A DNA stretch of 64,000 nucleotides from an uncultured Desulfobacterales bacterium (lineage in GTDB: Bacteria; Desulfobacterota; Desulfobacteria; Desulfobacterales; CAJINA01), in NCBI GenBank assembly GCA_964636125.1, contig CAZWPX010000021.1, forward strand, positions 14,045 through 78,044. The letters run 5' to 3'. The translations under genes were made by a program, and so were the position numbers. The notes below the pieces were generated by a model that was given only the letters and a program-made list of their open reading frames with translations, did not search any database and was not told where the DNA came from. Positions 8,951-59,796 of the stretch are shown piece by piece (positions within the stretch are counted from its first letter, which is position 1; every line of letters begins with the position of its first letter).

Positions 8951-9520
8951 TGAAAGGCAAAAGAAAACAAGGGTTGCGATTTAGGTCGCCGCCTCTTGTT
9001 TCGTTTCTGCTACCACTTGTTGAAAAAATGGTCTTTTCCAGCCTGCAGGCCGCCTTCTGATTTACCGGATTTATCAGGTGAGCATACACATTCAAAGTGA
9101 CCACTGGACTTGCATGACCCAATTGAGATTGAATGTATTTAATATTCTCACCCTGTTCGATCAATAGCGATGCGTAGGTGTGCCTCAAATCGTGAAAACG
9201 GATGTATGGCAATTTAGCTTTTTTCAGGGCAGGGTAAAAGTGCCTTTGAATCATATTGCCATGATCCAACGGCCCCCCGGATTTGTTCGGAAAAATTAAA
9301 TCAAGTTCACTTGGCGGGCAGGCAAGGTGCCACTTTTTATGGCTGCCATCATTGCAGGCCCTATATCAATTTTGCGGTTAGATGTTTTTGACTTCGGCCT
9401 GTACCATGCGCCTTCGTTAAAGGTGCGTTTGATGTGAATCTGGTTGTTAAACCAATCAACATCTGTCCATTTAAGGCCGAATAATTCTCCCTGTCGGGCA
9501 CCGCTGAAAATCGCCAACAT
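8951..9520 (-). pseudogene. Tyrosine recombinase (phage integrase family) remnant, N-terminally truncated and frameshifted
   Basis: Two ORF pieces in different frames. One is 9296..9520 (SGARQGELFGLKWTDVDW, catalytic Arg box). The other is 8856..9269 (IRFHDLRHTYAS ... LGHASPVVTLNVYAHL, the H-x-x-R and Tyr boxes). The frame changes near the T5/A5 run at 9334-9338. The arm and core-binding domains are absent. The reading frame runs on into the tRNA fragment. Confidence 0.8.
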
Positions 9521-9764
9521 TAAAAAGAAAACAGGAATTGGAGGTGCAGATGGATCAAATCCAAATAGCGTTCCTGTTTCTGGGTTGCATTTTCAGATTC
9601 ACTCCAGTAGCATAACAATTGTCGAGCAAGGAAATCGGGATTCTCATTCTCATTATACCTCTGCCGAAGCTTCACCCCACCGGACCGCACCCTGTTTTCG
9701 GAAAATTACTCCTCCTCTGAAACCGGGAATCCCTGAAATTGACATCTTAATTAAAGGTGAAATC

Positions 9765-12700: not shown

Positions 12701-15020
12701 CGGTTCCAGGGAAGTGACCATCACCGCCGAGGCCGCCGGCCTGCCGACCCGGCTGGCAGCTGCCGTGGTTCACGACGATGAGGCGACCGTCATCAGCCTG
12801 TCACTTCCCACTTCAGTGTCGGAAGATGATGGCGTGGTCACCGGGATGGCCACCGTGTCGATCGATTCTCCGGCCGGGATGGATGTCGATGTCCACCTGT
12901 CCGTGAAGCCTGTCGGCGAGGTTTTCGTTCCGGCGATTGTTACGATCCATTCAGGTGAAAGCAGTGCGGAGATAGACATTCACGTGGTCGATGACGAGTT
13001 CTTCGACGGCGCCCGCGAAGTCCGTATTGACGCCCGGGTGGAAGGCTGGACGCCGGCCAGCGCCACGATGGTCGTGGAAGACAACGAGTTGAGTGATCTG
13101 ACTATCACCCTTCCCGGGTTGGTTTTCGAGGGGAGCGGGGTTCTCTCAGATTCGGGGAACGTATCCGTACCCGGCATCCTGCTGTCCGATCTGGTTGTCA
13201 ACCTCTCCATGACCGGGTTTCGCGAAATCACCCTGCCCGACACCGTGACCATCCCGGCCGGCAGCGGTTCGGCTACCTTTGACATTACGGTCACCGACGA
13301 CTGGATAGTGGACGGGGACCAGACGATTACCATCGCCGCCTCCGCCGATGGCTGGGCATCGGCCCAAGGGCCCGTCACGGTCGTTGACACCCTGCGATTT
13401 CGACCGGAATTCCGGACCCACGATGATGCCGCTTCCAATCAGCAACGTCCGGCAGCAGCCGGTCTGGCCGGCGGCGGGTTTATCGTTGCCTGGCAAACTG
13501 ATGATATTCTGGCACGGCGCTTCGACAACCGGGGAGAACCCCAGGAAAACGAGATAATGGTCAATTCATATACCACCGGAATTCAGACCCAGCCTGCAGC
13601 GGCCGGTCTGGCCGGAGGGGAATACGTGGTTGTCTGGCAATCCCGCTACCAGGATGGAAGCGGGGAAGGGATATATGCCCGTTTGTTCAATGGTACCAGC
13701 AACGTGTTGACCGATGAGTTGCCGGTCAACACCACCACGGATAATAACCAGGCTTACCCGGCGGTGGCCGATCTGGCTGACGGCGGCTTCGTGATCGCAT
13801 GGCAGTCTTACCAACAGGACGGCAGCGGGGAAGGTATTTATGCCCGGATATTCGACGCTTCCGGGAATCCTTTGACCGATGAACTGCCGGTCAACATCCA
13901 GACCGACTTGAATCAGTCACACCCGTCGGTGGCCGGTCTGGCCGGCGGCGGGTTTGTCGTATCGTGGGATTCCTACATCGATGCCGAACACCAGAACGAC
14001 ATTTTATGCCGGGTGTTCGATGCCGGCGGAAATCCGCTGACCGATGAACTGCCGGTCAACACGTATGCCGAGTCAAGCCAGAGCAATCCGTCATCGGCCG
14101 CGTTGGCCAACGGCCATTTCGTCATCACCTGGCAATCCTATCTCCAGGACGGGTTCGGAGACGGTGTGTTTGCCCGAACTTTCGATGCTGCCGGAAACCC
14201 GTTGACCGGCGAACTGCCGGTCAACAGCATCACCGCTGGCAGCCAATATTATCCGGCAGCGGCCGGCCTGGAAAATGGCAGATTCAGCATTGCCTGGTAC
14301 AGTTACATGTCGGGGGCATATCTCAATGGGATCTTTACCCGCATCTTCAGTTCGAACGGGAACCCTGAAACCGATGAATTCCAAGTCAATGCCGGAAGCC
14401 TCGGCAGCCTGCCCGAACCAGGCATCGCCGGTCTGGACATGGGAGAATTCGTTATCGTTTGGGAAAAATATCAGTCGGGTACATACGACGACGTTTTTGG
14501 CCAGATCCTCACCCAGGACACCGATGTGGATGATGACGGCATTCCCGGCGTCCAGGAGGATCTTGACCACAGCGGCACGGTCGAAACGGGAGAGACCCAT
14601 CCTTGGATGGGCGACACCGACGGTGACGGTATACAGGACGGTACGGAAAAGGGCCTGACGCTTGCCGATGTCGGTCCGGACACGGATCTTTCCGTATTCA
14701 TCCCCGATGCGGATCCGACGACCCTGCTCGACCCTGGCGATCCGGACACGGACCACGACGGGATTGCCGATGGCGCGGAGGATACCGATGCCAATGGCCG
14801 CTTCGATCCCGGAGAGACCGATCCGCTCTTTATGGCCGGCGACTTGGATGACAGCGGTGCAGCCGATCTTGCCGATGCCATCCAGCTTTTCCAGATGGCT
14901 GCCGGCCTGCCGACGGATCCCGGCGCCTTCCACCCCGGCGCCGACATGGACGGCGACAATGTTTTCAGCCTGGGCGAAGCGGTTTTCATTTTACAGCGGC
15001 TGTCCGGCCTCCGCCCCTGA
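9765..15020 (+). CDS. Secreted subtilisin-like (S8) serine protease, 1751 aa, with Calx-beta-like repeats, 7 x ~55-aa propeller-like repeats, TSP3 repeats and a C-terminal double dockerin-like module
   Basis: Start at MRVQRFSGLFTLVWILFLLILTFPLHA after RBS AAAGGTG. Catalytic triad motifs VAVIDVGF, HGTACAEIVH and GTSAAAPHVAGAAALL. Repeats of the form AGLAGGGFVV.WQSY.QDGSGEGIYAR.FD..GNPLTDELPVN. C-terminal DLDDSGAADLADAIQLFQMAAG ... DMDGDNVFSLGEAVFILQRLSGLRP. Confidence 0.85.
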   Translation: MRVQRFSGLFTLVWILFLLILTFPLHARSTPKWRLAQLPSGGVPPDLTAISGARVQSMSSKLGPRLRRLIMQKKVVRHSLGHLPAASPSPSSDSENIRVVFEMHSVTDQDVARITSNGGRIIRKLDRRIAVSLPEDRIMSVAESLDNATSVRLPFRFFPTEVPGEGVNLTGANAFHRQGMTGRGAKVAVIDVGFKGLTEARASGDLPNDVHTMDFTGNGLETQYLHGTACAEIVHDMAPYAELHLLKVSDEIDVQGAFDYCLANQIRIISLSIGIVGSGPGDGTGPLADMADQARASGALIVAAAGNFGSQADTTVVDGQPITITLGSHWEGTFTDNNADGFHEFSGIDYNVIGTVAGFDDDGNPETNELTIILRWNDWPLGTTDYDLFLFDFNTGELVTGSTVVQDGTQPPLEVISFDVPDSQTEARFYSVVVQKPDGEPAGVEMEIYLGNYCLFAPWMEHPSPIITTTSNIAEPADAESVLAVGAINFSDWETGPQESFSSQGPTNAWAGSAARFKPDIMGPDGVNTSTYSTEGFAGTSAAAPHVAGAAALLAGAYPFLGPDDLEDRLVKSAIDMGSNGRDNIYGHGRLSVDIQFADWLPGTDSAALKAILGDDLRDRIYYGDAANDELVIIDSVSGRVARRLPMNSRFDELAISKDGSILAVAGGDLVVMDLDSLIPRKMDTNLDTQSVAFDHRGQLFISTTEGFDDIYHYDPDTESIITSFGLSHDLSTSWSPDILQTDSQGTILLAAIDSGALFKFDVSGATPVFMAEDSGGIGMIWQLLVAPGGDEIYSGTKILSAADLSVVDSFLLPSDSVVGYNFRGMDTDLAGSLVYISADGNYGDAVFQFDAAQRTLLKSYDIAGNHSTDSPASRGMVTDRFDKSAFVVIRKSINGYAVQLVALESLFSVRVPAVFLESDGTATGKGTVHLSEARSENFAVTLVSEQPEILSVPSTVTVPAGQTMVEFDVTLTDNALPSGSREVTITAEAAGLPTRLAAAVVHDDEATVISLSLPTSVSEDDGVVTGMATVSIDSPAGMDVDVHLSVKPVGEVFVPAIVTIHSGESSAEIDIHVVDDEFFDGAREVRIDARVEGWTPASATMVVEDNELSDLTITLPGLVFEGSGVLSDSGNVSVPGILLSDLVVNLSMTGFREITLPDTVTIPAGSGSATFDITVTDDWIVDGDQTITIAASADGWASAQGPVTVVDTLRFRPEFRTHDDAASNQQRPAAAGLAGGGFIVAWQTDDILARRFDNRGEPQENEIMVNSYTTGIQTQPAAAGLAGGEYVVVWQSRYQDGSGEGIYARLFNGTSNVLTDELPVNTTTDNNQAYPAVADLADGGFVIAWQSYQQDGSGEGIYARIFDASGNPLTDELPVNIQTDLNQSHPSVAGLAGGGFVVSWDSYIDAEHQNDILCRVFDAGGNPLTDELPVNTYAESSQSNPSSAALANGHFVITWQSYLQDGFGDGVFARTFDAAGNPLTGELPVNSITAGSQYYPAAAGLENGRFSIAWYSYMSGAYLNGIFTRIFSSNGNPETDEFQVNAGSLGSLPEPGIAGLDMGEFVIVWEKYQSGTYDDVFGQILTQDTDVDDDGIPGVQEDLDHSGTVETGETHPWMGDTDGDGIQDGTEKGLTLADVGPDTDLSVFIPDADPTTLLDPGDPDTDHDGIADGAEDTDANGRFDPGETDPLFMAGDLDDSGAADLADAIQLFQMAAGLPTDPGAFHPGADMDGDNVFSLGEAVFILQRLSGLRP

Positions 15021-49969: not shown

Positions 49970-50123
49970 GGCTGCAAGGCAGGGCCGCCGCCACCCATTG
50001 ACGCTGTACAGGGCAAGGCGCGGGAGCCCCAACCGTGATGATACATAGACATTTTGGGGTCATCGCTATCAACAGCCGTCCCGAAACACAAGGCTGCGAG
50101 GGACAGGCTTGCGGAGGTCCCGG

Positions 50124-50993
50124 ATGATGCCTGCATCGATTACCCCCGATCCCAAAATTCGTCGGTTAATTGAACAGAAATCAACCGCAGGCAGCAATAT
50201 GTGCTGGACATGCGGCACCTGTGATTTTGAATGCCCGGTCTATATCAGCGCGCAGCGGCTGAACCCCCAGAAAATTATCCGGATGGCGAATCTGGGGATG
50301 CTGGAAGCGTTGCTAACGCTGCCGGATATCTGGTATTGCCTGATGTGTCGGCGCTGCCACAAGGGGTGCCCAAACGCCGTCAAGCCATTTGAGGTGATTG
50401 AGTACATTCGCCAGGAGGCAATCCAGCGCGGTGTGGTTCGTGCCGATATGCTGACCCGCCAGCGCGAATTGGTTTTCCGGTTTCAGCGGGTTCGCTGGCG
50501 AAGCATTGAAATCTGCAGGCACGGGGAATTGGCGGATCTGCCTGACGAACAGTGGCAGCAGTGGCTGAATGAACCTGTGCCGCCGGTTGTGGATGCCGTT
50601 AAGTTTGGTGGCGAGTTACCATCTGCACACCCTGGAAAATCCGTGGCGGATTCAAGCTCACAGGCCTGTTATACCTGCAGTGAATGCAGCGGCTGCTGCC
50701 CGATCTACAGCGAAAGGCCCGTGTTTGATCCCCAGTTCATCATCCGAATGGCAAATCTGGGACTCACAGATGAGCTGATCCACTCACCATCCATCTGGTT
50801 GTGCCTGCGCTGTGAAATGTGCGAGGGGGCCTGCAGTCAGAAAGTCCGGGGCCACAAAGTGATCCGGGATCTGCAGGAACTTGCCCTTGAGCGAGGCGTT
50901 GTCGGCCGTGGTTTCATGGAACGCTTCGCCAGAGCGGAGCACGTTCTCTATTCCCGTTTGGTTGTTGCCCTGGACGATCTTTTGAAGAAGTGA
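50124..50993 (+). CDS. Tandem-duplicated HdrC-like 4Fe-4S protein (4 x CxxCxxCxxxC)
   Basis: Cluster motifs CWTCGTCDFECP, CLMCRRCHKGCP, CYTCSECSGCCP and CLRCEMCEGACS. Both halves share P(Q)KIIRMANLG...IW.CL.C. ATG at 50124 after GGAGG. Confidence 0.75.
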   Translation: MMPASITPDPKIRRLIEQKSTAGSNMCWTCGTCDFECPVYISAQRLNPQKIIRMANLGMLEALLTLPDIWYCLMCRRCHKGCPNAVKPFEVIEYIRQEAIQRGVVRADMLTRQRELVFRFQRVRWRSIEICRHGELADLPDEQWQQWLNEPVPPVVDAVKFGGELPSAHPGKSVADSSSQACYTCSECSGCCPIYSERPVFDPQFIIRMANLGLTDELIHSPSIWLCLRCEMCEGACSQKVRGHKVIRDLQELALERGVVGRGFMERFARAEHVLYSRLVVALDDLLKK

Positions 50994-51024: not shown

Positions 51025-52245
51025 TTAGTCGGCTTCAAACCGCTGTTCAATTATCAATGCCGGTTTAAGGAGCAGGGTGACCACGAATATGCCCAGGGCC
51101 AGGACACCCAGGGTGATACTGATTTCCACCCAGCTGGGGGCATAATTGACCACCTCACCCATGGGGGAGGGGACCAGGCCGGGTATGATCAGCCCGATTC
51201 CTTTCTCGATCCAGATTCCCAGAAACAGGAAGATGCAGGCCGGCAGGAACACCAACGGATTGCTGCGTCCCGGGATAAATGCCAGGGACAGGGTCCCGAG
51301 CAGGTTCAGGGAGATGGCCGTCCAGATCCAGGGCACCAGGGCGTTGTGGCCTTCCAGGCCGAAGTACAGGTATTCAGCCGGAAGGCTGTGGTGCGTGGGG
51401 AAATAGAACTCCTTAAATACTTCAGAGAAAAGCATGATCAGGTTGATAAGCGCTGAGACCACGATGATGCGTTTGAGTTTGATGAACACTTCCGGTTCAA
51501 TTTTAAAGGTGGTGACCCGGGTGACGATCACCAGGACCACGGTGATCAACGCCGGGCCGGCCGCAAAAGCCGAGGCCAGGAACCGCGGCCCCATGAGCGG
51601 GTTGTTCCAGAATGGCCGGGCAGGCAGCCCCTGGTATAAAAATGCGGTGACCAGATGAATGCCGAAGGCCCAGAAAATGGAGAGGAAGACAAAGGGACGA
51701 TATAATTTCTCGACCGGCTTGCGGTTGTGATAATGGCAAAACAGGATATAGGCCGGTACCATCAGGTTCAGGGCCAGATAGCCGTTCAGTACGAGTACAT
51801 CCCAGGTTAAAAGAGAGGTCGGCCAGTTGAAAAGCCCGATTACCGGGATCATGTGCCAGGCCTGCAGCGGCCCGCCGAGATCAACGAATACGAACGTCAG
51901 GCACATTACCAGCGCGCCGATGGCCACCACTTCGCCGATAATAACGACTTTGTGCAGGTCTTTGTCCTTAAATATGTAGGAGGGCAGGATGATCATCACG
52001 GCTGCAGCGGCCACACCCACCAGGAAGGTGAAATTGGAGATATAAAACCCCCAGCTGACGATGTCCGACATATTGGTTACCGTCAGGCCGACATTGAACT
52101 GGACAAAATAGGCATATACACCCTGGACCATGGTGGCCGCGAGGATGCACAGAAAGATCTGGTAGCCCAGGCCGCCGGACAGGCTCCAGGTGACCACGTC
52201 TTTTATAAAAACCGTCAACTCCTTTACGGGAGACTGCTTCTCCAT
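51025..52245 (-). CDS. NrfD/PsrC-family integral membrane quinol-interacting subunit
   Basis: 406 aa and about 10 TM helices. It lies directly downstream of the NrfC-like Fe-S subunit. RBS GGAGAA. Confidence 0.75.
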   Translation of the reverse strand: MEKQSPVKELTVFIKDVVTWSLSGGLGYQIFLCILAATMVQGVYAYFVQFNVGLTVTNMSDIVSWGFYISNFTFLVGVAAAAVMIILPSYIFKDKDLHKVVIIGEVVAIGALVMCLTFVFVDLGGPLQAWHMIPVIGLFNWPTSLLTWDVLVLNGYLALNLMVPAYILFCHYHNRKPVEKLYRPFVFLSIFWAFGIHLVTAFLYQGLPARPFWNNPLMGPRFLASAFAAGPALITVVLVIVTRVTTFKIEPEVFIKLKRIIVVSALINLIMLFSEVFKEFYFPTHHSLPAEYLYFGLEGHNALVPWIWTAISLNLLGTLSLAFIPGRSNPLVFLPACIFLFLGIWIEKGIGLIIPGLVPSPMGEVVNYAPSWVEISITLGVLALGIFVVTLLLKPALIIEQRFEAD

Positions 52246-52263
52246 AATATTTCTCCTGAACTG

Positions 52264-53235
52264 CTAATCTATAAAATACCAGAACTTCGGATCCGTCCCC
52301 AGGTCCTCTTTGAAACGGAACACCTTTTTATTCGCCAGGACGAACCGGATTTCACTATTGGGGTCCAACAGGTTTCCAAACACCCGCGCTCCGGTGGGGC
52401 AGGCCTCGGCACAGGCGGGCAGTTTGCCTTTCCGGCTGCGTTGTATGCAGAAGGTGCATTTTTCCATCTGGCCGCGGTGGCGCAGCCGGTTTCCAAGATA
52501 GTGCTGCTTGCGGGTTATCTCGTGAGCGGGGACCTGCGGTTCGTTCCAATTGAAGCGGCGGCCGTAGTAGGGACAGGCTGCAATGCAGTAGCGGCAGCCG
52601 ATGCACCAGTCATAATCGACCACGACGATGCCATCCGGTTCCTGCCAGGTGGCTTTTGTGGGGCAGGCTTTGACACAGGGGGCGTTTTGGCAATGAAAGC
52701 ATTGCACGCCCATATAGTGCCGGCCGGCAACCGGGACCTCGTGGAAATACTTGCCATCCCCATCTTCCGGGGACATTTTGCCGTGCTCCATCTCGAATAT
52801 CCGGATATACTGGGTCTTCGACTGGCGGTCGAGGTTGTTCTCCTTCACGCAGGCCGCCACGCATTCCATGTAGCCTTCGCACCGGGTCACATTAAACGCA
52901 TATCCGAATAATACGCCTTCAACCGGTTCTTTGCTGCTTACCTGAACATCGACCCCTTTTTGGGCCTTGGCCAGCTGTTCCAGGCGCCGGACGGTCTCTT
53001 CCTTCTCCTGGGCGGTCATCAGGCGGTAGTTTTTTTTGAAATATTCCTTAAACCGCAGAGAAGCTTCGTCGCTGGGCCCGAACATGCCGGTGCCACACCC
53101 GGGCGTCATTGCGGCACTGCCCAGGGCGGCTGCTTTTACGGCCCCCTTGAGAAATGCCCGTCGCCCGCACCTTTTCTTCTGGTCCGGACTGCCCTCTGGC
53201 GGTTTTTGACTGACTCTGTTTTTTCGAGGATCCAT
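52264..53235 (-). CDS. TAT-exported NrfC/PsrB/DmsB-type 4x[4Fe-4S] ferredoxin subunit
   Basis: Twin-arginine motif GRRAFLKGAVKAAALGSAA. Cluster motifs CEGYMECVAAC, CFHCQNAPCVKACP, CIGCRYCIAACP and CTFC...LPACAEACP. Start at 53235 after AGGAAAG. Confidence 0.8.
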   Translation of the reverse strand: MDPRKNRVSQKPPEGSPDQKKRCGRRAFLKGAVKAAALGSAAMTPGCGTGMFGPSDEASLRFKEYFKKNYRLMTAQEKEETVRRLEQLAKAQKGVDVQVSSKEPVEGVLFGYAFNVTRCEGYMECVAACVKENNLDRQSKTQYIRIFEMEHGKMSPEDGDGKYFHEVPVAGRHYMGVQCFHCQNAPCVKACPTKATWQEPDGIVVVDYDWCIGCRYCIAACPYYGRRFNWNEPQVPAHEITRKQHYLGNRLRHRGQMEKCTFCIQRSRKGKLPACAEACPTGARVFGNLLDPNSEIRFVLANKKVFRFKEDLGTDPKFWYFID

Positions 53236-53243
53236 ATGCTTTC

Positions 53244-53867
53244 CTATTTGCTCAGCGGAATTGAGTAGGTTTTGGGCCACCGTTTTTCAAAAAGGGGTGC
53301 GTGCGGGTCGTGACAGGCGGTACAGTTCTTGACCACCCGTGTGCCGGCCCAGTTGGCGACCCTTTTGCCGTGCGCACCGCCCACCCAGTCTTTTTTCTGC
53401 CTGAAATGGCACTGCCCGCACATCTGGTAGCTGTGGTCCATGTCGATGCGCGATCCTTTTTCAGCAACCAGGTAATCACGCTCATCTTTCTTATGGCATG
53501 TAAAGCAGTCCAGCGGTTTCAATTTTCCGCCGTGAACCAGGGTGATATCACCGTGGGCCAGTTCAGCGGCTTTGGACGCTTTCACTTCCTTGTTGGTGTG
53601 GCACTGGCTGCATTGGAAGCGTTCCATTTTATCCTTGCGGGTTTCCACCCGGAACAGGCCTCCCTGGTATTTTGACTGTGCGATTACCGATCGCGCTGGA
53701 GATTCTATGATCGCATCCACACGTGCTTCATCGTTTACCGGAGCTGTCGCCTTTTTGTAGGTTTCAACGACGCCCGCCTGTTCGGAATGGGCCGACCAGC
53801 CTGTGCCCAGTACAGCCAGTGCGGGTAAAATCATGAAAAGGCATATTTTTGCTATTGGTGTCTGCAT
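53244..53867 (-). CDS. Periplasmic tetrahaem cytochrome c (c3/NrfB/NapM-like role)
   Basis: Signal peptide MQTPIAKICLFMILPALAVLG. Four CxxCH motifs: CSQCH, CFTCH, CGQCH and CTACH. Confidence 0.8.
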   Translation of the reverse strand: MQTPIAKICLFMILPALAVLGTGWSAHSEQAGVVETYKKATAPVNDEARVDAIIESPARSVIAQSKYQGGLFRVETRKDKMERFQCSQCHTNKEVKASKAAELAHGDITLVHGGKLKPLDCFTCHKKDERDYLVAEKGSRIDMDHSYQMCGQCHFRQKKDWVGGAHGKRVANWAGTRVVKNCTACHDPHAPLFEKRWPKTYSIPLSK

Positions 53868-53894
53868 GGATTTCCTAACCCGTTCGTAATTGCA

Positions 53895-54572
53895 TTAACG
53901 TTGAAATAATCCAGCAGCAGCGTCGGTGACGTGGCACTGGCGGCAGTTGCCCCGGGACGGGTGATCCACCCGTATGGCGTTGACCGCGCCGGGTCCCACA
54001 TGACAGGCGATGCAGTCGCCCCGCATCTGAAGTCCATGGGGGATGGGCGGCGGCCCGCCGGGGAGGTACGAACGTCCCAGCCGGGGTGTTGTGACACTTA
54101 TCCAGGCATTTTGTACGAACAGGCCTTCGGTTGTCATCTCCACGTGGCATTGGCGGCAGGCGGTCTGTTCCGGATGCGGCGTCAGCGGTGTATTTCTTTT
54201 GAATTCCGCGGTCCAGCCGCCTTTGGCGTGACAGGTCAAGCACTGCAGCTGCATATTGTCGGGCTTCTCAACTTTATGCGGGATAAAGGGCGGTGAACCT
54301 GGATACTGCCGGCGGGAGTAGTACTCACTGAGGGTGCGCTCTGTGGATATGCCGCCCAGATACTCCTGGGAGATCCGGTCATAGTTTTCAAAAATAGTGC
54401 CGCCCCGGTAATCAAAATTGCCGTCCGGGGGCGTGAGTGTGGCCGCGGCCGGCTCCTCGGATTCGTAAGAGAAAGCTGAAAATACAACCAGCGGCAGGGC
54501 CAGGATGCAGATTGCGGCAAACCCGAGAAAAACCTTTCCTATCTTAGGATTGTTTTTTTGCGTTTCCATCAT
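53895..54572 (-). CDS. napB: Membrane-anchored tetrahaem cytochrome made of two tandem NapB-like dihaem modules
   Basis: Module 1 is [12 protein letters not shown]...CLTCH...[14 protein letters not shown]. Module 2 is [20 protein letters not shown]...[14 protein letters not shown]. Both follow the E. coli NapB pattern PPMIPH...CLQCH...PTH...CLQCHV. The start overlaps the napA stop as ATGA. Confidence 0.7.
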
Positions 54573-56884
54573 GCTCTCTCCACTTTTACGGCGCATTTTT
54601 TATAATCCGGTTGTTTTGAAATGGGGCAGAACGCATCCAGCGTCACCTCATTGATCAAATGGCTTTCGTCGAAGAAAGGCACGAAGACCATACCCCGGGG
54701 TGGTTTCCCGCGGCCATCGATACTGGCTGTCATTTCAACCGATCCTCGTCGGGAGGAAACCTTGACCTTGCTGCCGTTGGTGATACCTAACTCGGCGGCA
54801 TCGGCAGAATGGATTTCAACGTAGGAAGCGGGCACGGCCTTGTGCAGGATCGGAACCCGGCGGGTCATGGAACCGGTATGCCAGTGTTCCAGAACCCGGC
54901 CCGTGTTCAGCCAGAACGGATATTGGCCATCGGGTGATTCCGCCGGAGGTTCGTAGGGCCGCAGCCAGATCCAGGCGCGGTTGTCCTTCTTACCGTAAAA
55001 ATCAAAATCCTTGCCCTTGGCCGCCGGGTCGTACTTGGCGTTGAAACGCCACTTGGTCTCCATGCCGTCCACGAACGGCCATTGCACACCGGACCGGGAT
55101 TTGAGCACCTTGTAAGGGGCCATACGGTGTTTCGGGCTGTCGTGGAAACGGCTGTACTCGTTCCAGATGTCTTCGATATAGGTTTCCCGGCTCCAGGGGA
55201 ACTGTTTTTCGTATCCCAGCCGGCGAGCAATTTCGATGAGCTGCCAGGTATTGCACATGGTGTTGCCCGGCATGGGGACGATCTGTTCATTGTGCTGGGT
55301 GCGCCGTTCGGAGTTCCCGAAAAAGCCTTCTCGTTCGATCCACAGGGCTGAAGGGAGAATTACATCGGCCACATCTGAGGTCGGGGTGGGGTAGATTTCG
55401 GACACAACCACGAAGCGGCCGTCTTTTTTGGCACCATCCCGGTACCTTCTCAGATTGGGCATCGTGACCATGGGGTTAGTGACCTGAATCCACATGAAAC
55501 GGATATCCCCCCGATCCAGGGCCCGGAACATCTCGACGGTGTGATAGGTAGGCTTGGGGTCAATGTTGGTAACCGGTACGTCCCAGATTTTAGCCGCCAT
55601 CTGGCGCGCTTTTTCCTTCATGACCACCCCGTGAGGCAGCTTATGGGTCAGGGTGCCGACCTCGCGAACAGTGCCGCAGGCGCTGGGCTGACCGGTCAGG
55701 GAAAAGGGGCTGTTGCCGGGGGAAGAAATTTTACCGGTTAAAAGATGAATATTGTAGACCAGGTTATTGATCCAAGTGCCGCGGGTGTGCTGGTTCATGC
55801 CCATGCACCAGAAGGAGGTGACTTTTTTATCCGGATCACCGTAGAGCGCAGCCAGGTATTTGATGTCTTTGGCCGGTACGCCGGACAGTTTTTCAACCTT
55901 TTCGGGTGTGTAATCGGCTAAAAATGCCTTGTAAGCTTCAAAATCAACAGTCTCGGCTTTGTCCTTGAACTTGAAGTGGTCTTCGGTACCGTAGCCGATA
56001 TTGGTTTTGCCCTTGTGGAAAGAGACGTGTTTTTTAACAAAATCCCAGTTTACCCATTTATTGCGGATGATTTCGTAACAGATGGCATTGGCCACGGCCA
56101 GGTCCGTCTGGGGTTTAAACAGGATCGATTTGTCAGCAGCCTGGCTGGTGCGCGTGGTGCGCGTGGCAAAATCGATGATCTTGACGTGTTTTTTGGCTTT
56201 GCGGTTGGCCAGCATACGCGAAAAGAGCACCGGGTGCATTTCCGTCATGTTGTTGCCCCAGGTGACGAAAACATCAGCGTGATCGATATCATCATAACAG
56301 CCCATGGGTTCGTCGAGACCGAAGCTGGTCAAAAAACCGGTCACCGCGCTGGCCATGCACAGGCGCGCGTTGGCTTCCACGTTGTTGGTGCCGATGCAGC
56401 CTTTGAACAGTTTGGAAGCGGCATAGCCGTCGGCTATCGACCATTGCCCGGAGCCGTAAATAGAAACAGCATCTTTACCGTGGTCTTTAATGGTGGCCTT
56501 CATTTTTTCAGCAATCAAGTCGAGTGCTTCCTGAACCGGGACTTTTACCATCTTCCCGTTTCGGCGGATCAGGGCATCGTGGAAACGGTCGTTACCATAG
56601 AGGATCTGGACTGAATGGTATCCCTTCACGCAGCAAAGGCCTTTGTTGACGCTGCAATTGGGATCCCCTTTAACCGCTACAGCGCGGTCGCCGGATACCC
56701 CGGCCAGCAGGCCGCAGCCCGTGCCGCAGAATCGACAGGGTGTCTTTTTCCACTCAATCGAACCTGCGGGCAGGTCTGTACTTTTCCACGCCCCGAAACT
56801 GATACCCGGGAACAGCGTTGTCGCGGCGGCGGCCGCGCTGTTCAAGGCCATGGCCTTAATGAATGCTCTTCTGGTAATAGTCAT
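54569..56884 (-). CDS. napA: Periplasmic nitrate reductase catalytic subunit NapA (Mo-bisMGD, 4Fe-4S)
   Basis: TAT signal [21 protein letters not shown]. Fe-S motif CRFCGTGCG. Long colinear matches to E. coli NapA as I remember it: [71 protein letters not shown] and DYKKCAVK. Confidence 0.92.
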
Positions 56885-56913
56885 CTGCCGCTCCTTTTTT
56901 CTGGCGTCACTGT

Positions 56914-57144
56914 TTACTCGTCCCCATGGCCAAATGTCATGCCAAGGGATTGTAAAGATTGTAATTTTTTTAATTTTTGGTGCAGTTTTTTTTCGGTATC
57001 GTCATCCGGCGTATCGGTAACCAGCAACAGGATCTCTTCGTTATCGGCCGGGGTTACCTCACAGTATTCAAGGGCTGCCAGTTCCTGGTACAGCACCTCT
57101 TTTGATCCCTTTTGCGGGTAGGCGAGATAGCTCATGATTGGCAT
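56914..57144 (-). CDS. napD: NapD-like chaperone
   Basis: 76 aa, immediately upstream of napA. Its layout (IMSYLAY... [23 protein letters not shown]) resembles NapD. RBS AAGGAG. Confidence 0.55.
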
Positions 57145-57184: not shown

Positions 57185-57319
57185 TACGGTACCGTAGACA
57201 AGTGGTACTGTCTTTGGGTGAACGGTATTCAGATACCGTAAGCGGTTTAGAAAATGTATACAGGAAGAGCTTATAAAAGAAATTGACTTAGGTCAAAGAA
57301 TAATACCACAATGTGGTAT
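57185..57319. promoter_or_regulatory. nap upstream control region with three inverted repeats built from ATACC-type half-sites
   Basis: TACGGTACCGTA at 57185-57196. ACGGTAT-TCAG-ATACCGT at 57222-57239. AATACCACAATGTGGTATT at 57301-57319. All lie between the ModE-like gene and napD. Confidence 0.45.
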
Positions 57320-57396
57320 TATGCTATCTGCCATGGACTCTAAAAGAATTTTAAATATTGAAACTATTTCAGATATATGATGGCTGTTGGGAGTGG

Positions 57397-57762
57397 TCAA
57401 TCGGTGTTGCGGAATTCGGATTTCCCGCCTGGTTTTAAAAAAATATCGTCAAAGATGCGATCATCGGCTGCCAGGCATTGCTGGCGCAATTTGGAAAACG
57501 TTTTCATCAGGCGTCTACCTGCAGGGGTCAAACGGGTACCGGTTTTTCTATCGGAGCGAACCACGCGGAGCTGCAGATGCTTTTCGGTGGATTTGATTTT
57601 GCTCCAGACGGTTTTATACGACATCTTCAACTGCTTTGCCGTCTGATTGATCGAGCCGGTCCGTTGAATGGTCTCTAAGATCTCCATGCGGCCTTTGCCG
57701 AAGATGATGTTGCTGTCCGGGTCTACAATCCAGTGGCTGGACCTTAACTCTAACTTTACCAT
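57397..57762 (-). CDS. ModE N-terminal-domain-like winged-helix regulator (no Mop/TOBE domain)
   Basis: GKGRMEILETIQRTGSINQTAKQLKMSYKTVWSKIKSTE matches the ModE/LysR-type HTH pattern (GSIS.AA..L.MSY..AW). 121 aa. Confidence 0.7.
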   Translation of the reverse strand: MVKLELRSSHWIVDPDSNIIFGKGRMEILETIQRTGSINQTAKQLKMSYKTVWSKIKSTEKHLQLRVVRSDRKTGTRLTPAGRRLMKTFSKLRQQCLAADDRIFDDIFLKPGGKSEFRNTD

Positions 57763-58076: not shown

Positions 58077-58700
58077 ATGCAGGATTTTCAAACACTTTTA
58101 GACACCTCTGCCCGAGCCCACGGGCATCTCTGCCCGGGGCAGGTTGTGGGGGTGCGCATGGCCATGCTGGGGTGCCGTTTGATTGGCCTGGATGAACCCA
58201 CCCGGCACGACCAGATCAAAAAGCTGCTGGTGTATGTAGAAATGGACCGCTGTACCGCGGATGCGCTGGCCCACGTAACCGGTGCCCGGCTGGGGCGCCG
58301 CAGTCTTAAGTTCATGGACTATGGTATTATGGCGGCTACATTTTTGAACCTCACTACCGGGGCGACTTACCGGGTTGTGTCCACAGAGGAGGCCCGATCG
58401 CTGGCCTGCAGCTATGCCCCGGAAATTGGCGGTAAGGCCCATCAGCAGGTAGAGGCTTACAAGCGCATGCCTGAGTGCGTGCTTTTCCGGGTGCAGGCAG
58501 TGTCTGTGAGGCTGGAAGAGTTTGACTTGCCGGGCCCGACCCGCAGGAAAACGATCTGCAGTCGCTGCGGGCAACTCGTGCGCGATGCGCGGGAAGTCAT
58601 CGTCGACGGGCAGGTCCTGTGCAAACCCTGTACCGATCAATCCTATTTTACCGATGCCAAAGAGGTGACCTGGCCCGATATGAACAGGGCCCCGGTTTGA
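58077..58700 (+). CDS. FmdE-family protein with a C-terminal zinc ribbon
   Basis: Motif AHGHLCPGQVVGVRMA. C-terminal CSRCGQLV ... CKPC. Confidence 0.8.
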   Translation: MQDFQTLLDTSARAHGHLCPGQVVGVRMAMLGCRLIGLDEPTRHDQIKKLLVYVEMDRCTADALAHVTGARLGRRSLKFMDYGIMAATFLNLTTGATYRVVSTEEARSLACSYAPEIGGKAHQQVEAYKRMPECVLFRVQAVSVRLEEFDLPGPTRRKTICSRCGQLVRDAREVIVDGQVLCKPCTDQSYFTDAKEVTWPDMNRAPV

Positions 58701-58764
58701 ATTAAACGGATAAAAACAAGTTCACTGTACGCATATTAACGAGCTTCTGAAAGGAGTTTGGGCT

Positions 58765-59796
58765 GTGTTAAAGAAGATAGATGTTAAAGACGCCGTGGGC
58801 ACCCCGCTGGCCCATGATATAACTGAAATACGTCCCGGGGAATTTAAGGGGGCCGCGTTTCAAAAAGGACATACGGTCTGTGACGAGGATATCTGCCACC
58901 TGCAGAAGCTGGGAAAGAACCATCTCTATCTGGTGGATCTGGAAAATGACGAAATCCATGAAAACGAAGCCGCCGCCATCCTGGCGCGCGGGCTGTCGGG
59001 TGAGGGGATTGCCTGGGAGGATGCCCCCCGGGAAGGCAAAATAGGTCTGCATGCCGCTGTTGATGGCCTGCTGCATGTGGACACAGCTGCCCTGGCTGCT
59101 TTTAATATGGTGGACGAAGTGATGTGCGCGACGGTTCACAGCCACACCCTGGTAAAAAAGGGCGAACTGGTGGCGGCCACCCGTGCGATTCCGCTGGTGA
59201 TGAAAAGAACCCCCGTGGAGCGGGCGGCCGCGATTGCCTCCGGGCAGGGTGGCCTCGTGTCCGTGCGGGCCTTGGATAAAGTCCGGGCGGGGTTGGTTAT
59301 CACTGGCAGCGAAGTGTACCAGGGGCTGATCGAAGATCGCTTCGCGCCCATTTTGAGCGCAAAGATCGAGGCCCTTGGCTCCCGGGTGTACGGGGTGGAA
59401 TTTACCCCGGATGACCCGGCGGCCATCCAGCAGGCCATAGAAACCCATCTATCCAATGGCTGCGGTCTGATTCTACTCAGCGGCGGTATGAGTGTGGACC
59501 CCGATGACGTGACCCGCAAAGGTATCCGGCAGGCGGGGGCCAAAGAGTTCTACTATGGTGCCGCCGCCTTGCCGGGGGCCATGTTCCTGGTGGCCTATGT
59601 CGGGGGGGTACCCCTGCTGGGTGTCCCCGGCTGCGGCCTGCATCACCGGACCACGGTGCTGGATTTGATCCTGCCGCGGATCCTGGCTGGTGAGCACATA
59701 GATAAACAGGCCCTGGCTTTTTTCGGGCACGGCGGGCTGTGCCGGGACTGTGATACCTGCGTTTACCCGCACTGTCCATTCGGCAAGGGGTGTTAG
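58765..59796 (+). CDS. Molybdopterin-binding (MoeA/MoCF_biosynth-like) protein with a C-terminal Cys cluster
   Basis: GTG start after AAAGGAG. MoCF-type segment RAGLVITGSEVYQG...LLSGGMSVDPDD. C-terminal CRDCDTCVYPHCPFGKGC. Pairing with FmdE is common. Confidence 0.7.
   Translation: MLKKIDVKDAVGTPLAHDITEIRPGEFKGAAFQKGHTVCDEDICHLQKLGKNHLYLVDLENDEIHENEAAAILARGLSGEGIAWEDAPREGKIGLHAAVDGLLHVDTAALAAFNMVDEVMCATVHSHTLVKKGELVAATRAIPLVMKRTPVERAAAIASGQGGLVSVRALDKVRAGLVITGSEVYQGLIEDRFAPILSAKIEALGSRVYGVEFTPDDPAAIQQAIETHLSNGCGLILLSGGMSVDPDDVTRKGIRQAGAKEFYYGAAALPGAMFLVAYVGGVPLLGVPGCGLHHRTTVLDLILPRILAGEHIDKQALAFFGHGGLCRDCDTCVYPHCPFGKGC

What the first reader, a model, noticed from the sequence alone, without database searches (positions are those of the whole stretch)
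51025..57144. Non-canonical nap operon: NapA and duplicated NapB wired to an NrfBCD-style quinol dehydrogenase instead of NapC or NapGH
The gene order on the - strand is:
- napD-like;
- napA, a clear NapA that is colinear with the E. coli enzyme;
- a membrane-anchored tetrahaem protein made of two tandem NapB-like dihaem modules (PPFIPH...CLTCH...CRQCHV, then PPPIPH...CIACH...CRQCHV), whose ATG overlaps the napA stop as ATGA;
- a second soluble tetrahaem cytochrome;
- a TAT-dependent NrfC/PsrB-type 4-cluster ferredoxin;
- an NrfD/PsrC-type membrane subunit.

I recognise no NapC/NirT-type tetrahaem quinol dehydrogenase and no NapG/NapH pair in the operon. The predicted electron path is quinol, NrfD-like, NrfC-like, tetrahaem c, NapB-NapB and then NapA. 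This copies the logic of E. coli NrfBCD, which feeds NrfA, but here it is attached to Nap. Both the duplicated NapB and this module swap deserve a second look.
Basis: partly seen in the sequence, partly recalled or inferred. Interest (0 to 1): 0.65.

Follow-up and report, generated by a model that had tools for sequence, protein, structure and literature searches.

The report
Nap nitrate reductase with DsrOP-like module
This is a six-gene operon for a periplasmic nitrate reductase that appears to take its electrons from membrane quinol through an unusual module related to part of the sulfate-reduction machinery; the same operon recurs in many sediment sulfate-reducer genomes, I found no description of it, and it may let these bacteria conserve energy from nitrate.

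Summary
On the - strand, 51025-57144 holds napD-like, napA, a tetrahaem protein made of two NapB-like dihaem modules, a second tetrahaem cytochrome, a TAT-exported Fe-S protein and a ~10-helix NrfD-family membrane protein. The genes are tightly packed, and the fused napB start overlaps the napA stop as ATGA.

The window has no NapC/NirT-type or NapG/NapH-type gene.

The membrane module is a DsrO/DsrP paralogue, not NrfC/NrfD. The DsrP model scores 395 bits (cut-off 350). NrfD scores 20 (cut-off 348).

The operon is a conserved type, not a one-off:
- 170 species genomes in the scan encode the fused NapB.
- Among the 80 loci examined, napD-napA lies upstream in 66 of 66.
- The cytochrome/Fe-S/NrfD trio lies downstream in 51 of 55.

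The same three-gene cassette stands alone in other phyla. A 2026 paper flagged a similar "DsrOhPh-tetrahaem" locus in cable bacteria with unknown function.

Nine full-text searches found no description of the Nap-linked form.

I could not test whether napC or napGH lies elsewhere in this genome, or whether the N-terminus of the fused NapB is a membrane anchor.

Verdict: a new variant of a known kind, of moderately high interest.

The parts
57283..57296 (.). Palindrome TTGACCTAAGTCAA, a CRP/FNR-type box 152 nt upstream of the napD ATG; putative operator of the operon
   Evidence: TTGAC-N4-GTCAA with at most one mismatch occurs in the 320 nt upstream of napD in 35 of 65 related loci. There are 58 other hits in about 1.16 Mb of the same loci. 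Its function is inferred.
56914..57144 (-). napD-like gene (76 aa), probable NapA chaperone
   Evidence: Pfam NapD E 8e-5, residues 4-75 against profile positions 4-75 of 76, but 23.1 bits is below the 28-bit cut-off. It lies directly upstream of napA in 66 of 66 evaluable loci.
54569..56884 (-). napA, catalytic Mo-bisMGD subunit (771 aa) with a TAT signal
   Evidence: NCBIfam NapA equivalogs score 978 and 945 bits, both above cut-off. It is closest to the heterodimeric NapAB-type enzymes 2NYA, 3ML1 and 1OGY (750-790 bits) and further from monomeric D. desulfuricans NapA (605 bits). The sequence shows TRRAFIK, the CxxCxxxC...C cluster motif and ARLCMAS.
53895..54572 (-). Tetrahaem cytochrome made of two tandem NapB-like dihaem modules (225 aa), with an N-terminal hydrophobic segment (signal peptide or anchor)
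   Evidence: ATGA overlap with the napA stop. Half 1 matches Pfam NapB and solved NapB chains. Half 2 is homologous to half 1. Four CXXCH motifs plus four further invariant His (H107, H141, H187, H212 in the numbering of the 233-aa ORF 53895-54596).
53244..53867 (-). Periplasmic tetrahaem cytochrome c (207 aa), the cytochrome partner of the Fe-S/NrfD pair
   Evidence: Four CXXCH motifs and a Sec-type N-terminus. No NapC/NirT match, and the NrfB model scores 20 bits against a cut-off of 167. It is 35-41 % identical to the cytochrome of stand-alone cassettes. It occurs fused to the NrfD-like subunit in P0251.
52264..53235 (-). TAT-exported four-cluster-type Fe-S protein (323 aa from the ATG), a DsrO paralogue; predicted three [4Fe-4S] plus one [3Fe-4S]
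   Evidence: Best NCBIfam hit is DsrO, 183 bits against a cut-off of 200; NrfC scores 123 against 378. GRRAFLKG motif. Cys groups are 3+4+4+4. The first group reads C-x2-[Y/F]-x2-C-x3-C in 72 Nap-linked loci, and C-x2-C-x2-C-x3-C in the stand-alone cassettes.
51025..52245 (-). NrfD-family membrane subunit (406 aa, about 10 helices), a DsrP paralogue; putative menaquinol-oxidising and possibly proton-translocating subunit
   Evidence: Pfam NrfD 113 bits. NCBIfam DsrP 395 bits against a cut-off of 350; NrfD TIGR03148 20 bits. About 10 hydrophobic segments. Sixteen of 17 mappable DsrP quinone-site and channel residues are conserved.
57397..57762 (-). ModE-N-terminal-type HTH regulator (121 aa), upstream neighbour; possible molybdate-dependent regulator
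   Evidence: TIGR00637 ModE repressor domain E 1e-16, below cut-off. A homologue lies near the nap cluster in 11 of 80 loci. The association is loose.
58077..59796 (+). FmdE-like gene (58077-58700) and MoeA/MoCF-like gene (58765-59796), probable molybdenum-cofactor accessory genes
   Evidence: Pfam FmdE 97 bits and MoCF_biosynth 76 bits. Homologues lie within 10 kb of the nap cluster in 14 and 17 of 80 loci. Whether they belong to the system is inferred.

Best explanation
The six genes encode one periplasmic nitrate-reducing system.

Proposed electron path (inferred as a whole):
1. Menaquinol is oxidised at the periplasmic face of the 10-helix DsrP-like subunit.
2. Electrons pass along the clusters of the TAT-exported DsrO-like protein. 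In the Nap-linked clade this protein has lost one Cys ligand, so it probably carries a higher-potential [3Fe-4S] cluster.
3. They pass to the dedicated tetrahaem cytochrome.
4. They pass through the four bis-His haems of the NapB-NapB fusion.
5. They reach the [4Fe-4S] cluster and the molybdenum cofactor of NapA, which reduces nitrate to nitrite.

NapD chaperones NapA. The cytochrome/Fe-S/NrfD trio is a portable quinol:cytochrome c oxidoreductase cassette. It also occurs alone or beside other multihaem cytochromes in other bacteria.

Because the cassette belongs to the DsrP/ActC/QrcD group and keeps the proposed proton-channel residues, quinol oxidation may be coupled to charge translocation. 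NapC is regarded as not doing this.

Shown: gene identities, gene order, conservation of the operon, and homology of each part. Inferred: the electron path, its direction, the [3Fe-4S] cluster, and any energy conservation.
For: - **Gene identities:**
- **Tight packing and coupling:** short gaps and the ATGA translational coupling.
- **Conserved order:** the same six-gene order recurs with different flanks. napD-napA lies upstream in 66 of 66 loci. The trio lies downstream in 51 of 55, and two of the four exceptions are assembly gaps. Sixty loci hold all six genes within 5.1-7.1 kb.
- **No alternative donor in view:** no NapC/NirT or NapGH gene in the window. No NapC/NirT-type, NapG/NapH or NapH-family gene was detected within 10 kb in about 70 of 80 related loci.
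- **NapA type:** it is of the NapB-dependent type.
- **Quinone site:** the DsrP-like subunit keeps Tyr/Asp/Ser/Asp of the proposed quinone site and most channel residues (residue list from PMC8076601).
- **The cytochrome is a subunit:** an NrfD-like::tetrahaem fusion exists (P0251). The three-gene cassette is conserved as a unit in other phyla.
- **Nap-specific adaptation:** the Cys-to-Tyr/Phe change in the Fe-S subunit is specific to the Nap-linked clade.
- **Common promoter region:** a shared CRP/FNR-type box lies upstream of napD.
- **Precedent for an electrogenic feed into Nap:** C. jejuni Qcr (PMC6195509, title and abstract seen).
Against: - There are no expression, biochemical or genetic data.
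- Whether napC, napGH or a cytochrome bc complex exists elsewhere in this genome could not be tested.
- L003 and L028 have a NapGH-like pair within 10 kb. Four other loci have a weaker NapH-family gene next to the cluster. Redundant or alternative donors are therefore possible.
- One contig (L016) lacks the NrfD-like gene without any assembly gap.
- The NapD match is below Pfam's cut-off.
- The AlphaFold model of the fused NapB was unusable (pLDDT 36), so there is no structural test of NapB-like folding or of docking.
- Many hosts are sulfate reducers that are not known to respire nitrate (my own knowledge, not checked here).
Confidence: 0.68

Rival explanations
1. The cytochrome/Fe-S/NrfD trio is a general quinol:cytochrome c module. 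It feeds a periplasmic cytochrome pool, including a nitrite reductase, rather than being wired specifically to Nap. It sits in the nap operon only for co-regulation.
For: - The same cassette stands alone in Acidobacteriota-type genomes.
- A relative lies among unrelated multihaem cytochromes.
- L007 and L037 have an NrfH-like plus octahaem pair just upstream of napD.
- PMC13047784 proposes a general role for the cable-bacterial version, passing electrons from quinol to periplasmic cytochromes.
Against: - The trio is fixed directly after napB-napB in 51 of 55 loci across families.
- The Nap-linked Fe-S subunits share a derived Cys-to-Tyr/Phe change that the stand-alone cassettes lack.
- The Nap-linked NrfD-like proteins form one tight group, at least 66 % identical to each other against 44-53 % to the others.
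Confidence: 0.15
2. Electrons reach NapBB directly from the periplasmic cytochrome c3 network, reduced by hydrogenase or formate dehydrogenase. The extra NapB module is the adaptor. The DsrOP-like trio runs the other way, as a cytochrome c:menaquinone reductase like Qrc, or simply equilibrates the two pools.
For: - The closest characterised families of the membrane pair include Qrc, a quinone reductase (PMC6303296). QrcC and QrcD are weak secondary hits.
- Desulfobacterota have large periplasmic cytochrome pools (my own knowledge).
- A second dihaem module is not needed for a simple NapB role.
Against: - Reducing menaquinone next to a +420 mV acceptor serves no obvious purpose in a nitrate-reductase operon.
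- The QrcC and QrcD models score far below their cut-offs (138 against 400, 43 against 570).
- No hydrogenase or formate dehydrogenase gene was noticed in the flanks that were inspected, though this was not searched for systematically.
Confidence: 0.1
3. The Mo enzyme is NapA-like but acts on another oxyanion (chlorate, selenate, arsenate-like), so the operon is not a nitrate respiration system.
For: Many hosts are sulfate reducers from sediments and are not described as nitrate reducers (my own knowledge).
Against: - NapA equivalog models are passed at 978 and 945 bits, and the next families score far below their cut-offs.
- It scores 750-790 bits against solved nitrate-reducing NapA enzymes.
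- The ARLCMAS Mo-ligand motif, a NapD and NapB modules are all present.
Confidence: 0.04

Closest known systems
NapAB with NapC or NapGH (E. coli napFDAGHBC, Paracoccus napEDABC, Wolinella napAGHBFLD)
   Same: A TAT-exported NapA of the NapB-dependent type, a NapD chaperone, bis-His NapB-type haem domains next to napA, and periplasmic nitrate reduction driven from the quinol pool.
   Different: - No NapC/NirT tetrahaem and no NapG/NapH in the operon.
- NapB is duplicated in tandem within one polypeptide.
- The presumed quinol dehydrogenase is a cytochrome/Fe-S/NrfD-family trio.
E. coli NrfABCD (the NrfB-NrfC-NrfD feed to nitrite reductase)
   Same: The same logic: an NrfD-family membrane subunit without cofactors, a TAT Fe-S protein, a small multihaem cytochrome, and a periplasmic N-oxyanion reductase.
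   Different: - The NrfC, NrfD and NrfB models all score far below their cut-offs.
- The membrane subunit has about 10 helices, whereas NrfD has 8 (PMC8076601).
- The cytochrome is tetrahaem rather than pentahaem.
- The acceptor is Nap rather than NrfA.
DsrMKJOP complex (the DsrJ-DsrO-DsrP periplasmic module)
   Same: These are the closest sequence families. The DsrP model is passed and the DsrO model nearly so. It has 10 helices, and the DsrP quinone-site and channel residues are conserved. A small c-type cytochrome partner is present.
   Different: - No dsrM or dsrK alongside; the genes sit in a nap operon.
- The cytochrome is a tetrahaem with no detected similarity to any DsrJ model.
- It is only about 41-42 % identical to canonical-type DsrP and groups apart from it.
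'DsrOhPh-tetrahaem' locus, also called 'candidate alternative complex III', of cable bacteria (PMC13047784, 2026)
   Same: The same three kinds of component: a tetrahaem with bis-His haems, a DsrO homologue and a DsrP homologue. They lie away from dsrMKJ, form a clade apart from canonical DsrP, and are proposed to pass electrons from quinol to periplasmic cytochromes.
   Different: - That locus is not reported next to nap. Cable bacteria have napFDAGHB.
- It carries an extra single-helix protein, TMH1.
- I could not obtain its sequences, so I could not test whether the window's trio belongs to the same clade.
Alternative complex III (ActABCDEF) and QrcABCD
   Same: A 10-helix NrfD-family subunit, an Fe-S subunit with a [3Fe-4S] cluster, and a multihaem cytochrome, linking the menaquinone pool to periplasmic cytochromes with energy conservation. 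ActC and ActB are the nearest solved structures.
   Different: - No molybdopterin-like domain or subunit (ActB N-terminal part, QrcB).
- No second NrfD-like subunit (ActF).
- Sequence similarity is weak (ActC E 4e-8; QrcD 43 bits).
Desulfovibrio desulfuricans napCMADGH (NapM tetrahaem)
   Same: A Nap system in Desulfobacterota with an extra tetrahaem cytochrome (PMC5276818 describing Marietou et al. 2005).
   Different: - That system lacks NapB, has a monomeric NapA, and keeps NapC and NapGH.
- Here NapA is closer to the NapAB-type enzymes, and NapB modules are present twice.

Membership tests
NapA (periplasmic nitrate reductase catalytic subunit) | Passes curated NapA equivalog models over the full length | tested here: met
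   NF010055 scores 978 bits (cut-off 904). TIGR01706 scores 945 bits (cut-off 930.55).
NapA (periplasmic nitrate reductase catalytic subunit) | TAT signal, N-terminal [4Fe-4S] Cys motif and Cys ligand to Mo | tested here: met
   The sequence shows [15 protein letters not shown]...C and [10 protein letters not shown]. Pfam Molybdop_Fe4S4, Molybdopterin and Molydop_binding all match. The assignment of the Cys ligand rests on my own knowledge of Nap motifs.
NapB (PF03892 dihaem cytochrome) | Pfam gathering score reached; two CXXCH motifs plus two distal His per module | tested here: met
   Half 1 scores 27.7 bits against 25.1. Its profile hits 3ML1_B at 6.6e-7, 1JNI at 2e-5 and 1OGY_B at 2.8e-5.
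NapB (PF03892 dihaem cytochrome), second module | The same test applied to residues about 160-233 (numbering of the 233-aa ORF 53895-54596) | tested here: inconclusive
   Alone it scores 14.9 bits, below the cut-off. Its best PDB hit is NapB, but at E 0.072. It is homologous to half 1 by profile-profile comparison (98.5 %, E 1.8e-15) with the same PPxIPH/CXXCH/H/CXXCH layout.
NapC/NirT (PF03264) quinol dehydrogenase | A match to PF03264 in any protein of the operon | tested here: not met
   No PF03264 hit for any of the six proteins at E up to 0.01, or for the NapBB halves at E up to 10. As a positive control, the NrfH-like protein of L007 scores 125 bits.
NapG/NapH | A NapH-type membrane ferredoxin (TIGR02163) with a NapG partner in the operon or window | tested here: not met
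   The window has no further ferredoxin-motif ORF apart from an HdrC-like gene. tblastn with the L003 NapH (271 bits on TIGR02163) and NapG gives no hit in the window. The rest of the genome is not testable.
NrfBCD (E. coli type) | Curated NrfB, NrfC and NrfD equivalog models | tested here: not met
   NrfC TIGR03149 scores 123 against 378. NrfD TIGR03148 scores 20 against 348. NrfB TIGR03146 scores 20 against 167.
NrfD/PsrC superfamily (PF03916) | Pfam gathering score; a polytopic membrane protein without cofactor motifs, next to a four-cluster Fe-S protein | tested here: met
   113 bits against 25.8. About 10 hydrophobic segments. The TAT Fe-S gene lies 18 nt upstream.
DsrMKJOP complex | DsrP and DsrO equivalog scores | tested here: inconclusive
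   DsrP scores 395 against 350 (passes). DsrO scores 183 against 200 (fails). Stand-alone cassettes in Acidobacteriota-type contigs also pass the DsrP model, so the model does not separate paralogues.
DsrMKJOP complex | Encoded together with dsrM, dsrK and dsrJ | tested here: not met
   The neighbours are napDA-BB and a tetrahaem, in the window and in 51 of 55 related loci.
DsrOhPh-tetrahaem locus (PMC13047784) | A tetrahaem, a DsrO homologue and a DsrP homologue in one locus, apart from dsrMKJ | tested here: met
   The architecture is present. Homologous three-gene cassettes occur elsewhere.
DsrOhPh-tetrahaem locus (PMC13047784) | Same phylogenetic clade as the cable-bacterial DsrPh | not testable with these tools
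Alternative complex III / Qrc | A molybdopterin-like subunit or domain (ActB-N, QrcB), and ActC/QrcD-level similarity | tested here: not met
   QrcC scores 138 against 400 and QrcD 43 against 570. ActC hits are only E 4e-8 to 4e-5. The operon has no molybdopterin-like gene apart from NapA.

The most novel reading that the evidence does not exclude
Nap is here hard-wired to a minimal ACIII-like, DsrOP-type quinol:cytochrome c oxidoreductase that translocates charge. This would make periplasmic nitrate reduction directly energy-conserving in Desulfobacterales. By extension, it would assign a function, as an electrogenic quinol:multihaem-cytochrome coupling site, to the orphan 'DsrOhPh-tetrahaem' cassettes found alone in Acidobacteriota-type genomes and reported in cable bacteria and sulfur oxidisers.
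Probability: 0.3. Interest if true: 0.8.

Novelty: new variant of a known kind. Interest (0 to 1): 0.6.

Why it matters
- **Energy conservation.** Nap is textbook-classified as a non-energy-conserving nitrate reductase, fed by NapC or NapGH. A Nap permanently coupled to a 10-helix DsrP/ActC-type module would add a third kind of quinol dehydrogenase for Nap, possibly an electrogenic one.
- **Ecology.** At least 170 species-level genomes encode the fused NapB that marks the operon. The loci examined are mostly marine and freshwater sediment Desulfobacterales and Desulfobulbales, including a gutless-worm symbiont. This bears on how 'sulfate reducers' use nitrate and on sediment DNRA budgets.
- **An orphan module.** It gives a concrete, testable physiological context for a cassette whose function a 2026 study left open.
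- **Annotation.** The NCBIfam DsrP equivalog model is passed by these non-Dsr paralogues. Automated pipelines will call them DsrP and may over-predict sulfur metabolism.

Tried and rejected
- **AlphaFold2 on the fused NapB.** With a 14-sequence alignment it gave pLDDT 36 and pTM 0.18. I ran no fold search and relied on profile comparisons instead.
- **Locating the window's own contig.** A look-up by the exact 233-aa ORF found nothing, probably because the real start is the internal Met.
- **Cable bacteria as the source of this operon type.** Rejected: their nap cluster is napFDAGHB plus pOOC.
- **Known napMADGH and napAGHD arrangements.** Thermosulfurimonas/Dissulfuribacter napMADGH and Desulfurivibrio napAGHD differ from this operon.
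- **The convergent HdrC/QmoC-like double ferredoxin (50109-50993) as a NapF/G-like partner.** Rejected: it is not a NapG, NapH or NapF match and is absent from all 80 related loci.
- **The paired ~300-aa ferredoxin genes in L079.** They are MinD-type ATPases, not NapGH.
- **Solved-structure searches with the second tetrahaem.** Nothing significant. No DsrMKJOP chain was found by sequence.
- **Literature.** Nine full-text searches found no description of a Nap-linked NrfD/DsrP-type module. Pereira et al. 2011 is not held in the library. I did not look up Marietou 2016 or the Nap reviews of Simon & Klotz and Sparacino-Watkins by id. An earlier mention in those cannot be excluded.
- **The NJ tree of NrfD-like proteins.** It is star-like and has no support values. 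I use it only to say that the Nap-linked sequences group tightly and apart from canonical-type DsrP.

Full report
**1. What is in the sequence**

The - strand between 51025 and 57144 carries six tightly packed ORFs.
- **napD-like (76 aa).** It aligns end to end with Pfam NapD, but at 23.1 bits it is below the 28-bit cut-off.
- **napA (771 aa).** It passes both NCBIfam NapA equivalog models (978 and 945 bits). It scores higher against the heterodimeric NapAB-type enzymes of E. coli, C. necator and R. sphaeroides (750-790 bits) than against the monomeric D. desulfuricans enzyme (605 bits). It has a TRRAFIK TAT motif, the N-terminal cluster motif and the ARLCMAS segment.
- **The next gene** starts at an ATG that overlaps the napA TGA (gagagagcATGAtg).
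- **Then follow** a 207-aa tetrahaem cytochrome, a TAT-exported Fe-S protein and a 406-aa NrfD-family protein. From its ATG at 53235 the Fe-S protein is 323 aa, which matches the orthologue lengths.
- **Gaps** between the last four genes are 27, 8 and 18 nt.

A motif scan of all ORFs in the 64-kb window found no other multihaem cytochrome. The only other ferredoxin-motif ORF is a convergent HdrC/QmoC-like gene.

**2. The duplicated NapB**

- Residues up to about 160 reach the Pfam NapB cut-off (27.7 against 25.1 bits). The C-terminal half alone does not (14.9 bits).
- A profile of 20 diverse first halves hits the three solved NapB proteins over the whole dihaem domain (E 6.6e-7 to 2.8e-5).
- The second-half profile still ranks NapB first, but not significantly (E 0.072).
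- The two halves are clearly copies of each other: BLASTP E 3e-9, and profile-profile 98.5 % probability, E 1.8e-15 over 52 columns.
- They share the register PPxIPH - CXXCH - His - CXXCH. All four CXXCH motifs and four extra His residues are invariant among 14 homologues, which fits four bis-His haems.
- I conclude that this is a tandem NapB-NapB fusion whose second module has diverged.
- Whether the N-terminal hydrophobic stretch is an anchor is open. In the window it is long (about 19 residues), but the Desulfobulbaceae orthologues end in ordinary AxA signal-peptidase sites.
- An AlphaFold model was too poor to use.

**3. The membrane module is DsrOP-like, not NrfCD-like**

- The membrane protein is an NrfD-superfamily member (Pfam 113 bits). 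Its specific match is DsrP (395 bits, cut-off 350). The NrfD model scores 20 bits and QrcD 43.
- The Fe-S protein is closest to DsrO (183 bits against 200). NrfC scores 123 against 378.
- The tetrahaem has no meaningful NrfB, NapC/NirT or NrfH match.
- The membrane protein has about 10 hydrophobic segments. This is the hallmark of the DsrP/ActC/QrcD/HybB branch described in PMC6303296 and PMC8076601.
- I mapped the residues that PMC8076601 lists for D. vulgaris DsrP through a canonical-type DsrP (P0259). Sixteen of 17 mappable positions are identical in the window protein. These include the proposed quinone-site residues Tyr, Asp, Ser and Asp.
- The Fe-S protein has Cys groups of 3+4+4+4. In 72 Nap-linked orthologues the second Cys of the first group is Tyr or Phe. 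In the stand-alone relatives the group is the usual CxxCxxCxxxC.
- By analogy with NarH, DmsB mutants and QrcC (my own knowledge, plus the table in PMC8076601), this predicts one [3Fe-4S] cluster.

**4. It is a conserved operon type**

- The fused NapB has 921 relatives at E ≤ 0.001 in the protein collection.
- A scan of one genome per species found 170 genomes that encode it. The 80 best loci are mostly annotated as Desulfobacterales or Desulfobulbaceae, or unclassified Deltaproteobacteria. They include Desulfobacula, Desulfosudis oleivorans, Desulfatitalea, Candidatus Desulfatibia and the Olavius Delta 1 symbiont.
- Among these loci, napD-napA precedes the fused napB in 66 of 66 evaluable cases.
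- The tetrahaem/Fe-S/NrfD trio follows in 51 of 55. Two of the four exceptions are 100-N assembly gaps.
- Sixty loci hold all six genes within 5.1-7.1 kb. The window's operon spans 6.1 kb.
- The flanks differ between genomes. The order is therefore maintained by selection rather than by recent common ancestry of a region.
- A TTGAC-N4-GTCAA palindrome lies upstream of napD in 35 of 65 loci, about 30-fold enriched. This suggests a common CRP/FNR-type control point.

**5. NapC and NapGH**

- None is in the window. None was detected within 10 kb in about 70 of 80 related loci.
- L003 and L028 have a true NapH-family gene with a NapG-like partner nearby.
- Four loci have a weaker NapH-family gene next to the cluster.
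- L007 and L037 have an NrfH-like tetrahaem paired with an octahaem cytochrome just upstream of napD. This is most simply read as a nitrite-reducing partner with its own quinol dehydrogenase.
- The rest of the window's genome could not be examined, so 'instead of NapC or NapGH' holds for the operon and not for the organism.

**6. Where the module comes from**

- An exhaustive profile search placed the Nap-linked membrane protein (at least 66 % identity within the group) at 44-53 % identity to a large set of relatives, and at about 41-42 % to canonical-type DsrP.
- Contexts of four relatives show the same three genes in the same order (cytochrome, Fe-S, NrfD-like) with no nap genes nearby. Related proteins in the same hit list carry Acidobacteriota-type names. 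Identities are 35-41 %, 49-52 % and 44-47 %.
- Another relative sits among unrelated multihaem cytochromes.
- One representative (P0251) is a natural fusion of the NrfD-like protein with the tetrahaem (E 1e-18). This argues that the cytochrome is a subunit of the membrane complex.
- A 2026 study of cable bacteria describes a 'DsrOhPh-tetrahaem' locus, earlier called a candidate alternative complex III. It has the same three kinds of component and also occurs in bacteria without sulfur metabolism. The authors leave its function open (PMC13047784).
- I could not test clade identity with that locus.
- The two reviews of NrfD-family complexes list no Nap-associated member.
- Nine full-text searches gave no description of this nap arrangement. 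Several relevant papers were either not held in the library or not looked up by id.

**7. Mechanism**

- The best-supported reading is a single Nap system in which the trio is the quinol dehydrogenase. Electrons would pass from menaquinol to the DsrP-like subunit, the Fe-S wire, the tetrahaem, NapB-NapB and finally NapA.
- Gene identities, order and conservation are shown. The path, its direction and the [3Fe-4S] cluster are inferred.
- The membrane subunit belongs to the branch proposed to translocate protons and keeps the proposed channel residues. Nitrate reduction may therefore be electrogenic here.
- The precedent is the Qcr-dependent Nap of Campylobacter jejuni (PMC6195509, seen).
- Three rivals remain and are given lower weight: a general-purpose module that is only co-regulated with nap, reverse operation as a quinone reductase with NapBB fed by the cytochrome c3 pool, and a non-nitrate substrate.

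**8. Verdict**

- The arrangement is a new variant of known kinds (Nap systems and NrfD-family modules). It is widespread and apparently undescribed.
- Interest is moderately high. It offers a testable route to energy-conserving periplasmic nitrate reduction, a physiological context for an orphan module, and a warning that the DsrP equivalog model captures non-Dsr paralogues.

Noticed in passing
window 57185-57322: Besides the CRP/FNR-type box, the 250-nt AT-rich region upstream of napD holds three further palindromes: ATAATACCACATTGTGGTATTAT (57300-57322), ACGGTATCTGAATACCGT (57222-57239) and TACGGTACCGTA (57185-57196). The 8-mer TACCACAA from the first recurs upstream of napD in 15 of 65 loci.
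   Followed up: partly
window 50109-50993 (+): A convergent 294-aa protein with two HdrC/QmoC-type double-cluster domains ends 31 nt from the stop of the NrfD-like gene. It is absent from all 80 related loci, so it is probably unrelated to the nap operon.
   Followed up: yes
L007 5200-7259; L037 4993-7066; also L033 and L049: An NrfH-like NapC/NirT-family tetrahaem (PF03264, 125 bits) followed by an octahaem cytochrome (PF13447, eight CXXCH) lies just upstream of napD in L007 and L037. Related octahaem genes occur in L033 and L049. This is a likely nitrite-reducing partner and would make a compact DNRA locus.
   Followed up: partly
L003 10083-11905 (-); L028 2-1566 (+); L072, L057, L063, L052: A genuine NapH-family gene (TIGR02163, 271 bits) with a NapG-like partner lies within 10 kb of the operon in two genomes. 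A weaker NapH-family gene (27-29 % identity) directly follows the NrfD-like gene in three loci and lies upstream of napD in one.
   Followed up: partly
proteins P0251, P0246, P0247 (relatives of window 51025-52245): There are natural fusions of the DsrP-like membrane protein. P0251 carries the tetrahaem cytochrome at its C-terminus. P0246 carries CBS domains (PF00571). P0247 (859 aa) carries a long C-terminal extension of unknown kind.
   Followed up: partly
NCBIfam NF045798 (DsrP) against window 51025-52245 and P0242-P0257: The DsrP 'equivalog' model is passed by the Nap-linked protein and by stand-alone cassette proteins. One Vicinamibacterales protein (P0421) is already named DsrP at NCBI although its neighbours are only a cytochrome and an Fe-S protein. 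This is an annotation hazard for predicting sulfur metabolism.
   Followed up: partly
L083 4643-5502 and L084 4560-5458: In two stand-alone cassettes the trio is preceded by a small protein of about 105 aa with no family match and by a cNMP-binding-domain protein. This may be a dedicated regulator pair.
   Followed up: no
window 1-26000: G+C content is mosaic, from 37 % to 59 % in 2-kb steps, against 52-58 % over most of 42-64 kb (49 % at 56-58 kb). A 1858-aa ORF lies at 9444-15020 within the 59 % G+C patch. This may be foreign or mobile DNA. I did not examine it.
   Followed up: no
L005 (CAZYGG010000059.1): This uncultured Desulfobacterales MAG shares the window's upstream flank as well: ModE-like 84 %, FmdE-like 85 %, MoeA-like 83 % and the 558-aa ORF 74 %. 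It is the nearest species-level genome found.
   Followed up: no
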